Source: the human T2T-CHM13v2.0 reference genome, Homo sapiens. Taken from it: DNA of 64,000 bases. Positions 34,320 to 37,300 of the stretch are shown one piece after another; position 1 is the stretch's first letter, and each line of letters begins with the position of its first letter. The notes under the pieces were generated by a model that was not told the origin of the DNA, did not search any database, and worked only from the letters and a program-made list of their open reading frames with translations. The DNA lies in contig CP086569.2 in NCBI GenBank assembly GCA_009914755.4, positions 5,056,001-5,120,000 of the forward strand. The letters are read 5' to 3'. A program made the position numbers and the translations under genes.

Positions 34320-37300
34320 TCAATATTTAGCTCCCACTTATAGGTGAGAACATGTGGTGTCTGGTTTTCTGTTCCTGTGTTAGCTTGCTTAGGACGATGG
34401 CGTCCAGCTCCATCCATGTTGCTGCAAAAGACATGATCTTGTTCTTTTTTATGGCTGCATAGTATTCCATGATACATATGTACCACATTGTTTTAATCCA
34501 GTATACTATTGATGGGTGTTTAGGTAGTTCCATGTATTTGTTACTGTGACTAGTGCAGCAATGAACATCCATGTGCATGTGTCTTTATGGTAGAATGATT
34601 TATATTCCTTGGGACTATACCCAATAATGGGATTGCTGGGTTGAATGGTAATTCTGTTTTAAGTTCTTTGAGAAATTGCCATTGCTTTCCACAATGGCTG
34701 AACAAATTTGCATTCCATCCATCAGTGCATAAGCATTCTGTTTTTTCCACACCCTCACCAGTATCTGTTATTTTACAACTTTTTAATAATAGACATTCTG
34801 ACTAGTGTGAGATGGTATCTTATTGTTGTTTTGATTTGCATTTTTCTAATGATTAGTGATGTTGAACATTTTTTCACATATATATTCCTTGCAGATTATG
34901 GATATTAGACCTTTGTTGGATGCATTGTTTGCAAATATTTTCTCCCATTCTGTAGGTGGCCTGTTTACTCTGTTCATAGTTTCTTTTGCTATGCAGAAGC
35001 TCTTTAGTTTAATTAGATATCATTTGCCAATTATTTTGTTGTCGTAATTGCTTTTGATTTCTCTGTTATAAAATCTTTGCCAGGTCCTATGTCCAGAATG
35101 GTCTTTCCTGGGTTATCTTCCAGTGTTTTTGTACTTTTAGGTTTTATATTTAGGTCTTTATTCCATCTGGAGTTGATTTTTGTATATGGTGTTAGAAAGG
35201 GGTCCAGTTTCAATCTTCTGCATATGGCTAGCCAGTTATCCCAGCACTATTTATTGAATAGAGAGTCCTTTCCACATTGCTTGTTTTTGTCGACTTTGTC
35301 AATGATCAGATGGTTGTAGGTATGCGGCTTTATTTTTGGGCTTTCTAATCCATTGCAGTGGTCAATGTGCTTGTTTTTGTACCAGTTCCACACTATCTTG
35401 GTTACTGTGTAGCCTTGTAATATAGTTTGAAGTCGGGTAATGTGATGCATCCAGCTTTTTTCGTTTTGCCTAGGATTGCTTTGACTATTAGGGCTTTTTG
35501 GTGCCATATGAATTTTAAAATAGCTTTTCTAATTCTGTGAGGCATGTCTTTGTTAGTTTGATGGAAATAGTATTGAATCTGTAAATTGCTTTGGGCACTA
35601 TGTTTGTTTTAACAATATTGATTCTTCCTATCCATTAGCATGGAATGCTTTTCCATTTGTTTGTGTCATCTCTAATTTCTCTGAGCACTGTTTTGCAATT
35701 CTTGTTATAGAGGTTTTTCACCTTCCCGGTTAGATGTTTCCCCAGATATTGTTCTCTTTTTGTGGCTATTGTGACTGGAATTGCATTCTTTATTTGGCTC
35801 CCAGCTTGGATGTCATTGGTGTATAGGAATGCTACCAATTTTTGTACATTGATTTTGTATCCTGAAACTTTGCTTAAGTTGTTTATCAGATCAAGGAGCT
35901 TTTTGACAGACACTATGGAGTTTTATAGGTATAGAATCATATCACCTGCAACAGGGACAGTTTGACTTGCTGTCATCCTATTTGGATGCCTTTTATTTCT
36001 TTCTCTTGTCTGATTGCTCTGTCCAGGATTTCCAGCACTGTTTTGAATAGCAGTGGTGAGAGAGAGAGCATTATTTTCTTGTTCCAATTTTCAAGGCAAT
36101 GCATCCAGCTTTTGCTCATTCAGTATGATGTTGGCTGCGGATATGTCATAGATGACTCATAGTTTTGAAGCAGGCTCCTTCAATGCCTAGTTTGGTGAGT
36201 GTTTCTAACATGAAGGGAAGTTTAATTTTATCAAAATCCCCTTCTGTATCTTTTGAGATACAAATGAGAATTTTATTTTCGGTTCTGTTTCTGTGACAGA
36301 TCACATTTATTGGTTTGCATTTGTTGAAACAAACTTGTATCCCAGGAATGAAGTCTATTTGATCATGGTGATTCACTTTTTTATGTGCTGCTGAATTCAG
36401 TTTGCTAGTATTTTGTTGAGAATTTTTGCATCTACTTTCATCAAGTATATTTGCATGAAGTTTTCTTTTTTTTGTTGTGTCTCTGCCAGGTTTTGGTATC
36501 AGGATGATATTGGCCTCATAGAATGAGTTAGGGAAGAGTCCCTTTTTCTCCATATTATAGAATAATTTCAGTAGGAATGTTCCCAGACCAAACTGAGGTT
36601 CGGGCTGCTATTTCTTGTGGCCCAATAATGAGATGCAGATGAACTAGGGGGAAGAGAGTTTTTATTTCTGTAACCAGTTACAGGGACAAGGCCTGAAAAA
36701 TATTGCCAGACCAACTCAAAATTACAGTCTTTCAGAGCTTATATACTTTCTAAGCTATATGTCTACATCTAAGTGTGCATTCATTTAAAGACATAAGTGA
36801 TTAACTTCTTTTAATCTGTAACTAAGATCTGAGTCCTGAAGACCTTCCTCTGGAGCCTCAGTAAATTGACTTAACTTAGATGGGTCTAGCTGCTGGGGTG
36901 ATTACCCTTATCTTGTCTCCTGCTAAATCATGGAGGTTTGGGGAGTTCCTTTAGTCCCCAGTAAAGCTTGTTTGTGGAGGCCTGGGGAGTTTCTCCATAC
37001 TCCCAATAAAACTTATTTAATCCTAAACAGGTCCTGTTAAGAATTCCGTCATTATCTTGTCATGCTTTAAGGCCCAGGAAAGGCCTAGGCAAAACTGTTG
37101 GTGGGCTTTTGTTACATTCCATCCTGAGTGGTTATTAAAAGCTGATAGGTAAAGCTTTATCAGCTTTTAATAACCACTCAGTCAATACTGAAACAGTTGT
37201 TAGGGAGGTCTGTGTTAGTGAGACCTGGCCTGCCACAGGAATGGTACTAGCTCTTCTTTACATATCTGGTAGAAACTCACTGTGAATCTGTCTGGTTCTG

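What the first reader, a model, noticed from the sequence alone, without database searches (positions are those of the whole stretch)
36579..37237. Solo LTR nested in L1 ORF2 with a 5-bp TSD and a perfect 24-bp-arm hairpin
L1 ORF2 sequence is exactly collinear on both sides of a roughly 650-bp TG...CA element flanked by duplicated 'aggaa/ggaat'. A 5-bp TSD suggests ERVL/MaLR-type integration. Inside it, 37124-37181 is a perfect inverted repeat: 'ctgagtggttattaaaagctgata', then a 10-nt loop 'ggtaaagctt', then 'tatcagcttttaataaccactcag'. The loop contains a HindIII-like palindrome 'aagctt'. A 24/24 perfect stem in otherwise diverged repeat DNA is unusual. It could be a fold-back created at integration, a protein-binding palindrome, or a source of a hairpin RNA if transcribed.
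Basis: seen in the sequence. Interest (0 to 1): 0.5.

Follow-up and report, generated by a model that had tools for sequence, protein, structure and literature searches.

The report
Solo retroviral LTR with short palindrome
This is an ordinary leftover retroviral LTR sitting inside an old L1 element in a primate genome; it carries a real, perfect 24-bp-arm palindrome that is most simply a by-product of a known copying error and shows no sign of being a gene or a new kind of element.

Summary
The sequence facts hold. A 660-bp TG...CA element (36578-37237) interrupts a minus-strand L1 ORF2. With the insert removed, the ORF2 translation aligns without gaps to human ORF2p residues 428-629. Inside the element, 37124-37147 and 37158-37181 are 24/24 complementary around a 10-nt spacer. 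Simulated 64-kb sequences give perfect arms of at most 9-13 nt.

The classification needs correcting. An independent copy fixes the terminus at 36578. With TG/CA ends the target-site duplication is therefore 4 bp (GGAA), which is the ERV1 (class I) pattern and not ERVL/MaLR. TATA and AATAAA signals place U3-R-U5 on the minus strand. The palindrome then lies in 5' U3, upstream of the LTR's own transcription start.

The hairpin has a 24-26 bp stem with no basal extension. It has no Rfam family and no transposon-type duplication at its edges, so it does not look like a miRNA precursor or a MITE.

Its sharp-edged perfection fits a single templated inverted copy, as made by replication template switching. 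That process is documented as common in primates. I could not obtain the family consensus or orthologues. Whether the palindrome is specific to this copy or inherited from the source provirus is therefore unresolved. Low interest.

The parts
35850..36573 (-). Downstream part of the interrupted L1 ORF2 (RT-domain region), on the minus strand
   Evidence: The 135-aa ORF 36146-36553 matches RVT_1-type L1 proteins. The joined translation aligns to human ORF2p 428-629. This stretch is 86% identical to the uninterrupted L1 in L002.
36574..36577 (.). Left copy of the 4-bp target-site duplication GGAA
   Evidence: Read directly. AGGAAT is repeated 664 bp apart (D6). The terminus is fixed by L001.
36578..37237 (-). 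Solo LTR, 660 bp, TG...CA ends, functional orientation inferred to be minus (U3 at high coordinates, U5 at low coordinates)
   Evidence: Termini read directly. The U5 end is shared with independent copy L001 and homology stops exactly at ...GGGAACA. AT skew jumps from about -0.3/-0.4 in the L1 flanks to about 0 inside. CpG observed/expected is 0.07.
36661..36666 (-). AATAAA polyadenylation signal on the minus strand, about 85 nt from the LTR's 3' end
   Evidence: Motif coordinates. Its role is inferred from position.
36739..36745 (-). TATATAA (TATA-box-like) on the minus strand, about 75 nt upstream of the AATAAA
   Evidence: Motif coordinates. Its role is inferred from position.
37124..37147 (.). 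Left arm of the perfect inverted repeat
37148..37157 (.). 10-nt spacer GGTAAAGCTT. In plus-strand RNA two G-U pairs shrink the loop to 6 nt.
37150..37159 (.). Nested 10-bp perfect palindrome TAAAGCTTTA, with its centre offset 2 nt from the centre of the large palindrome
37158..37181 (.). Right arm of the perfect inverted repeat
37238..37241 (.). Right copy of the 4-bp target-site duplication GGAA
37242..37547 (-). Upstream part of the interrupted L1 ORF2, on the minus strand
   Evidence: The translation ...[28 protein letters not shown] continues in frame across the junction. L002 aligns here at 73% identity.

Best explanation
A class I (ERV1-like) endogenous retrovirus integrated into an older L1 ORF2, in the same minus orientation, and duplicated 4 bp (GGAA). 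Recombination between its two LTRs later left a 660-bp solo LTR.

The 58-bp palindrome lies at LTR positions 57-114, in 5' U3. I read it as the footprint of one templated inverted-copy event. A polymerase briefly switched template, either by folding back on the nascent strand or by jumping to the opposite strand. It copied about 24 nt of neighbouring sequence in reverse complement and then returned to the original template. One such event yields a perfect stem with sharp edges.

I consider it somewhat more likely that this happened in the host genome after insertion than in the retroviral lineage before insertion.

The palindrome is most likely a neutral by-product. It may form a DNA cruciform or a short RNA hairpin if read through, but nothing indicates a selected function.

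What is shown: the anatomy, the boundaries, the L1 collinearity, and that the repeat is not chance. What is inferred: the mechanism, its timing, and neutrality.
For: Solo LTR:
- TG...CA ends and the AGGAAT repeat.
- The terminus is shared with independent copy L001, and homology ends exactly at ...GGGAACA.
- The AT-skew break coincides with the boundaries.
- L1 ORF2 is continuous and ungapped against ORF2p 428-629 once the insert is removed. Paralogue L002 is uninterrupted at that point.
- A 4-bp duplication is the ERV1 pattern (PMC6523648).
- TATATAA at 36745-36739 and AATAAA at 36666-36661 on the minus strand give a canonical arrangement: a U3 of about 520 nt, an R of about 70 nt and a U5 of about 60 nt.

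Templated copy:
- The arms are 24/24 with abrupt edges. The 7 nt on each side do not pair.
- Chance gives perfect arms of at most 13 nt.
- There is no second copy in the window.
- There is no transposon-type duplication at the edges, only a 2-bp TC.

The process is documented. Template-switch mutations create perfect inverted repeats in one step. More than 6,000 hairpins are attributed to them in primates, with one 28-nt example (PMC10710096). In great apes the copied length has a median of 12 nt and a maximum of 128 nt, and the majority event patterns yield single inverted repeats (PMC7954356).
Against: No family consensus, no second full copy and no orthologue could be obtained. The ancestral state of 37124-37181 is therefore unknown, and neither the direction nor the timing of the event is demonstrated.

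The perfect stem constrains age only weakly. At 3-4% post-insertion divergence, 48 nt stay untouched with probability 0.15-0.24. At 6-10% the probability is 0.06-0.01. My divergence estimate rests on one 82-94 bp comparison with a copy that may belong to a different subfamily.

The 24-nt length is in the upper tail of reported template-switch lengths. No clear priming microhomology is visible at the arm-spacer junction.

The LTR orientation is inferred from motifs only. The plus strand also carries an AATAAA, at 37005.
Confidence: 0.5

Rival explanations
1. The palindrome is inherited. The source provirus, and so the family or subfamily consensus, already carried the inverted repeat in U3, and this copy simply has not yet suffered a disrupting substitution.
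For: The only other copy is 88.5-91% identical over 82-94 bp, which implies roughly 3-6% divergence per copy. At 3-4%, a 48-nt stretch survives untouched with probability 0.15-0.24, so perfection does not exclude this reading. Any given 660-bp stretch has a low prior chance of a long template switch. Reverse transcriptases also switch templates readily (my own knowledge).
Against: Palindromes this long are, to my knowledge, uncommon in LTR consensus sequences. CpG observed/expected of 0.07 suggests substantial decay. The edges of the stem are sharp, with no partly decayed pairing continuing from the stem into the 7 nt on either side. No second copy covering this region was available to test the idea.
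Confidence: 0.32
2. The fold-back arose during the reverse transcription or integration that produced this particular insertion. It would then be specific to this copy but as old as the insertion.
For: Snap-back synthesis by reverse transcriptase is a known activity (my own knowledge). The result would look identical today.
Against: The palindrome starts 56 nt in from the LTR end, not at the integration junction. The junctions themselves are clean TG/CA with a normal 4-bp duplication. It carries the same survival penalty as the inherited scenario.
Confidence: 0.05
3. The hairpin is a small-RNA precursor: a young miRNA, or an shRNA-like substrate for Dicer.
For: The fold is very stable on both strands. 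Template-switch hairpins near transposable elements have become human miRNAs (PMC10710096).
Against: The stem is only 24-26 bp. The loop is 6 nt on the plus strand and 10 nt on the minus strand. The stem is flanked by 7x7 unpaired nucleotides on the plus strand, with no basal stem. The stated preference is a stem of about 35 bp with a loop of at least 10 nt, and the paper's own screen required stems of 30-55. No Rfam family reaches threshold; the best hit is the plant family MIR8706 at 31 bits against a gathering score of 95. The arm sequences do not appear in 8 million full-text papers. The hairpin lies about 410-470 nt upstream of the LTR's inferred start site, so the LTR promoter would not transcribe it.
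Confidence: 0.03
4. The 58 bp are a nested insertion of a tiny palindromic DNA transposon (a MITE, in the manner of MADE1).
For: MITEs are near-palindromes of comparable size. MADE1 is 80 bp (my own knowledge).
Against: There is no TA, TTAA or 8-bp duplication at the edges, only a 2-bp TC, which has a 1 in 16 chance. No other copy exists in the 64-kb window even with 3 mismatches allowed. The arm gave no hits in the viral contig collection. An old MITE would show mismatched arms.
Confidence: 0.03
5. The palindrome is a selected protein-binding site or cruciform element in the LTR enhancer region.
For: It lies in U3, where LTR enhancers reside. Perfect dyad symmetry is typical of dimeric binding sites.
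Against: Arms of 24 bp with a 10-bp spacer are much longer than known dyad sites. No evidence of conservation was obtainable.
Confidence: 0.02
6. It is a sequencing or assembly artefact, such as a chimeric fold-back read.
For: Fold-back chimeras occur in some amplification-based and long-read libraries (my own knowledge).
Against: Such artefacts are usually hundreds to thousands of bases long. Here the flanks continue collinearly through a normal LTR.
Confidence: 0.01

Closest known systems
Solo LTRs of class I (ERV1, gammaretrovirus-like) endogenous retroviruses in primate genomes
   Same: TG...CA termini, a 4-bp target-site duplication, a size of about 660 bp, TATA and AATAAA arranged as U3-R-U5, and nesting inside an older L1.
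   Different: The specific family could not be named because no Dfam or Repbase was available. The LTR carries a 58-bp perfect palindrome in 5' U3, and its presence in the rest of the family is unknown.
Template-switch mutation (TSM) hairpins of primate genomes (Loytynoja & Goldman 2017, PMC5453318; Walker et al. 2021, PMC7954356; Monttinen et al. 2023, PMC10710096)
   Same: A perfect reverse-complement repeat with a short spacer and abrupt edges, in non-coding and repeat-rich DNA. The length is within the reported range.
   Different: In the published cases the event is shown by comparison with an ancestral or outgroup sequence. This stem, at 24-26 bp, is shorter than the 30-55 stem length used to call miRNA-like products.
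MADE1 / miR-548 type palindromic MITEs
   Same: A short, near-perfectly self-complementary DNA segment capable of giving a hairpin RNA.
   Different: There is no TA duplication, no sequence resemblance to MADE1 as I recall it, and only a single copy in the window.
ERVL/MaLR solo LTRs
   Same: TG...CA solo LTR nested in another repeat.
   Different: That class makes 5-bp duplications. Here, canonical termini leave 4 bp.

Membership tests
Retroviral solo LTR (any class) | Terminal 5'-TG...CA-3' dinucleotides | tested here: met
   TG at 36578-79 and CA at 37236-37. The 36578 end coincides with the end of homology to independent copy L001.
Retroviral solo LTR (any class) | Short direct duplication of the target flanking the element, with the host sequence collinear once the element is removed | tested here: met
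   GGAA is present on both sides. The joined L1 ORF2 aligns ungapped to ORF2p 428-629. L002 is uninterrupted at this point.
Retroviral solo LTR (any class) | Internal U3-R-U5 signals: a TATA box followed by a polyadenylation signal near the 3' end | tested here: met
   On the minus strand, TATATAA at 36745-36739 and AATAAA at 36666-36661, about 85 nt from the end. These are motif positions only; function was not tested.
Retroviral solo LTR (any class) | Other copies of the same LTR elsewhere in genomes | tested here: inconclusive
   One partial copy was found: L001, 94 bp of the U5 end at 88.5% identity. No other copy appeared in the window, viral contigs, prokaryotic genome contigs, plasmids, phages or the protein database.
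ERV1 (class I) | 4-bp target-site duplication | tested here: met
   GGAA at 36574-77 and 37238-41, given TG/CA termini. The rule is taken from PMC6523648. The apparent 6-bp AGGAAT repeat arises because the LTR's terminal T and A mimic the neighbouring target bases.
ERV1 (class I) | Sequence match to a named ERV1 LTR consensus (Dfam/Repbase) | not testable with these tools
   No repeat library is available.
ERVL/MaLR (class III) | 5-bp target-site duplication | tested here: not met
   A 5-bp duplication would require a non-canonical LTR end, either G... at 36579 or ...AC at 37236. L001 shows that the terminal A (T36578 on the plus strand) belongs to the LTR.
Template-switch mutation product | Perfect reverse-complement copy of adjacent sequence with abrupt boundaries | tested here: met
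   24/24 arms. The adjacent 7 nt on each side are unpaired. The repeat exceeds chance.
Template-switch mutation product | An ancestral or outgroup sequence lacks the repeat and is converted to the observed sequence by one four-point switch | not testable with these tools
   No orthologue or consensus could be obtained. The best protein-level relative of the flanking L1 ORF is an 81% paralogue.
Canonical miRNA precursor | Stem of about 35 bp with an apical loop of at least 10 nt and single-stranded basal flanks | tested here: not met
   On the plus strand the stem is 26 bp (24 Watson-Crick plus 2 G-U) with a 6-nt loop. On the minus strand it is 24 bp with a 10-nt loop. There is no continuous basal stem. 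The criterion is from PMC10710096.
Canonical miRNA precursor | Match to a described miRNA family | tested here: not met
   Rfam 15 has no hit at gathering score. The best is plant MIR8706 at 31.4 bits against 95. The arm sequences are absent from full-text papers.
Canonical miRNA precursor | Expression and Drosha/Dicer-type read stacks | not testable with these tools
   No expression data are available.
Palindromic MITE | Superfamily-specific target duplication (TA, TTAA or 8 bp) at both ends | tested here: not met
   Only a 2-bp TC is shared.
Palindromic MITE | Many dispersed copies | tested here: inconclusive
   There are no others in the 64-kb window. The host genome could not be searched.

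The most novel reading that the evidence does not exclude
The palindrome is a young, lineage-specific hairpin born by template switching inside an LTR. It would be transcribed by read-through from a host or L1 transcript and diced into small RNAs from both strands. That would make it a proto-miRNA or endo-siRNA locus caught at birth.
Probability: 0.03. Interest if true: 0.4.

Novelty: already known. Interest (0 to 1): 0.12.

Why it matters
It matters little beyond correct annotation. The locus is a clean textbook example of nested retroelement insertion: Alu-rich primate DNA, an old L1, and an ERV1-type solo LTR inside it. It also shows how a single templated copying error can create a perfect hairpin in otherwise decaying DNA.

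If comparison with other primates showed that the palindrome arose in one step after insertion, it would be one more documented template-switch event of above-average length. Only evidence of small-RNA production or selective constraint would raise its interest.

Tried and rejected
Obtaining other copies of the LTR, to see whether the palindrome is a family feature:
- blastn of the LTR against the window gave only self hits and the hairpin's own inverted match.
- Five viral-contig scans found nothing: exact DNA scans with the right arm, a U5 20-mer conserved in L001, the LTR terminus and a degenerate U5 pattern, plus a peptide-seeded scan.
- Two genome-contig scans found nothing.
It gave one locus, L001, which holds only the last 94 bp of the LTR and not the hairpin region.
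- A protein search with all open six-frame LTR peptides concatenated gave no hit.
- blastn against plasmid and phage collections gave no match.

Obtaining the orthologous locus:
- An exact look-up of the adjacent 135-aa L1 ORF found nothing on record.
- A homology search with that ORF gave a best hit of 81% identity, P0001 on L002. L002 is a human-gut-metagenome contig that proved to be a paralogous, uninterrupted L1: 86% identity on one side of the insertion point and 73% on the other. It is useful for collinearity but is not an orthologue.
- A second hit, P0029, was looked up and its contig located as L003.

Literature: the arm sequences appear in no full-text paper, as DNA or RNA. No supplements are held for the template-switch miRNA paper.

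Rejected ideas:
- A 5-bp duplication and an ERVL/MaLR assignment: the termini fix the duplication at 4 bp.
- A MITE: no target duplication at the edges and no other copies.
- A canonical pri-miRNA: the stem is too short.
- Chance: excluded by the simulations.

I also looked for internal evidence of which arm is ancestral, using microhomology at the arm-spacer junctions and similarity of the arm and flank to other LTR segments. Nothing exceeded what chance would give.
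Full report
**What is there**

The window is primate DNA. GC content is 36%.

Between 36578 and 37237 lies a 660-bp element that begins TG and ends CA. The hexamer AGGAAT occurs immediately to its left (36573-78) and overlapping its right end (37237-42) (family D6).

**The element sits inside L1 ORF2**

The flanks are L1 ORF2 on the minus strand.
- The 135-aa ORF at 36146-36553 reads [29 protein letters not shown]... On the other side the frame reads ...[28 protein letters not shown].
- I removed 36579-37242, which is the insert plus one copy of the repeat. 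The minus-strand translation then runs through the junction in one frame (...[19 protein letters not shown]...).
- That translation aligns without gaps to residues 428-629 of human L1 ORF2p in solved structures, with E = 6e-64.
- A human-gut-metagenome contig (L002) carries a paralogous L1 that is uninterrupted at exactly this point.
- AT skew supports a foreign insert. It is about -0.3 to -0.4 in the antisense L1 on both sides and about 0 inside the element.

**Boundaries and class of the LTR**

The one related sequence I could retrieve is L001, from an ENA metagenome assembly. It shares the last 82-94 bp of the element at 88.5-91% identity. On the minus strand the homology stops exactly after ...GGTC(T/C)GGGAACA.

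T36578 therefore belongs to the LTR. With canonical TG...CA ends, the target-site duplication is GGAA (36574-77 and 37238-41), which is 4 bp. The apparent 6-bp repeat arises because the LTR's terminal T and A happen to extend the match.

A true 5-bp duplication would need a non-canonical LTR end.

Duplication length is the usual class marker: 4 bp for ERV1, 6 bp for ERVK, 5 bp for ERVL/MaLR (PMC6523648). The element is therefore an ERV1-type solo LTR, not ERVL/MaLR.

On the minus strand, TATATAA (36745-36739) is followed about 75 nt later by AATAAA (36666-36661), which lies about 85 nt from the end. That is a canonical U3-R-U5 layout, so I infer that the LTR is in minus orientation, the same as the L1.

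I could not name the family, because no repeat library is available.

**The palindrome is real and not chance**

- Arms 37124-37147 and 37158-37181 are 24/24 complementary around GGTAAAGCTT.
- It is the longest perfect inverted repeat in the window.
- Thirty Markov-simulated windows reach perfect arms of only 9-13 nt.
- With 3 mismatches allowed, the arm occurs only at these two sites, where 0 are expected.
- As plus-strand RNA it folds to a 26-bp stem (24 Watson-Crick plus 2 G-U) with a 6-nt loop: -40.8 kcal/mol, z = -8.8. As DNA: -25.5 kcal/mol, z = -8.6. On the minus strand the stem is 24 bp with a 10-nt loop.
- The edges are abrupt. On the plus-strand fold the 7 nt on either side are unpaired, and there is no continuous basal stem on either strand.
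- The spacer contains a second, offset 10-bp palindrome, TAAAGCTTTA.

In LTR coordinates on the minus strand, the palindrome occupies positions 57-114 in 5' U3. That is about 410-470 nt upstream of the inferred start site, so the LTR's own promoter would not transcribe it.

**What the palindrome is not**

- Not a described RNA family. Rfam has no hit at gathering score. The best hits are generic long-hairpin matches to plant miRNA models, at 31 bits against a threshold of 95.
- Not shaped like a canonical pri-miRNA, which prefers a stem of about 35 bp and a loop of at least 10 nt (PMC10710096).
- Not a MITE by the usual criteria. Only a 2-bp TC is shared at the edges, and there are no other copies in the window.
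- Not found in the literature as a sequence string.

**Most likely origin**

A perfect, sharp-edged reverse-complement copy is what a single templated event produces. Replication template switching, either intrastrand fold-back or an interstrand jump, is documented to do this in primates.
- Perfect hairpins form in one event. More than 6,000 such hairpins are reported in the primate lineage, with one 28-nt example.
- In great apes the copied length has a median of 12 nt and a maximum of 128 nt. Most events produce a single inverted repeat.

I therefore read the palindrome as the by-product of such an event, with no evidence of function.

**What remains open**

The timing is unresolved. If the palindrome is as old as the insertion, or was inherited from the provirus, then 48 nt must have escaped substitution.
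- At 3-4% divergence the probability of that is 0.15-0.24.
- At 6-10% divergence it is 0.06-0.01.

My only divergence estimate is one short comparison with L001, which may be a different subfamily because its upstream sequence does not align. The low CpG content of the LTR (observed/expected 0.07) hints at greater age, but the consensus CpG content is unknown.

Weighing this against the low prior chance of a long template switch in any given 660 bp, I put about 0.5 on a post-insertion event. I put about 0.3-0.35 on inheritance from the source element. The rest is spread over reverse-transcription fold-back, a small-RNA precursor, a MITE, a binding site and an artefact.

The decisive test is comparison with the Dfam consensus and with orthologous primate sequence. 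It could not be run here. All attempts to fetch further copies or orthologues failed.

**Verdict**

It carries a real but probably incidental palindrome of a kind whose mutational origin is already well described. Interest is low.

Noticed in passing
window 16817-16945 and 16981-17109: A 129-nt inverted repeat, 77% complementary, with a 35-nt spacer. It is formed by two Alu copies in opposite orientation (Alu hits 16947-16695 minus and 16982-17167 plus). Closely spaced inverted Alu pairs are known substrates for dsRNA editing and for instability (my own knowledge).
   Followed up: partly
window 27458-27473 and 27481-27496: A second perfect inverted repeat: 16-nt arms ATTTACATGTGAACAT / ATGTTCACATGTAAAT with a 7-nt spacer TGTGAGG. 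It also exceeds the 9-13 nt maximum of simulated sequences. It may be another template-switch product.
   Followed up: partly
window 37150-37159: The spacer of the large palindrome contains its own perfect 10-bp palindrome, TAAAGCTTTA, centred 2 nt away from the main symmetry centre. AAAGCT/AGCTTT motifs recur in both arms, which gives alternative pairing registers.
   Followed up: partly
window 36931-36950 and 36975-36994: An imperfect 20-nt direct repeat, TGGAGG(TT/CC)TGGGGAGTT(C/T)CT, at 44-nt spacing within the LTR's U3 (D1). It resembles the tandem enhancer repeats common in retroviral U3 regions.
   Followed up: no
window 11278-12364 and 3033-3687: Patches with several overlapping ORFs of 90-168 aa on both strands, which looked G+C-rich from their translations. 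Their composition was not measured and they were not examined. They could be another repeat or a CpG-rich feature.
   Followed up: no
L001 1690-1775: In the only other copy found, the LTR's U5 piece is directly preceded by an A-rich stretch and a short sequence beginning GCTGGGCATGGTGGTGC. That looks like a 7SL-derived SINE start, but the Alu consensus did not match it significantly. The rest of that LTR is missing or unalignable.
   Followed up: partly
L002 1-1069: A contig labelled human gut metagenome is host L1 DNA, not microbial. Gene callers annotated two 'proteins' on it. This is an example of host contamination in metagenome protein databases.
   Followed up: yes
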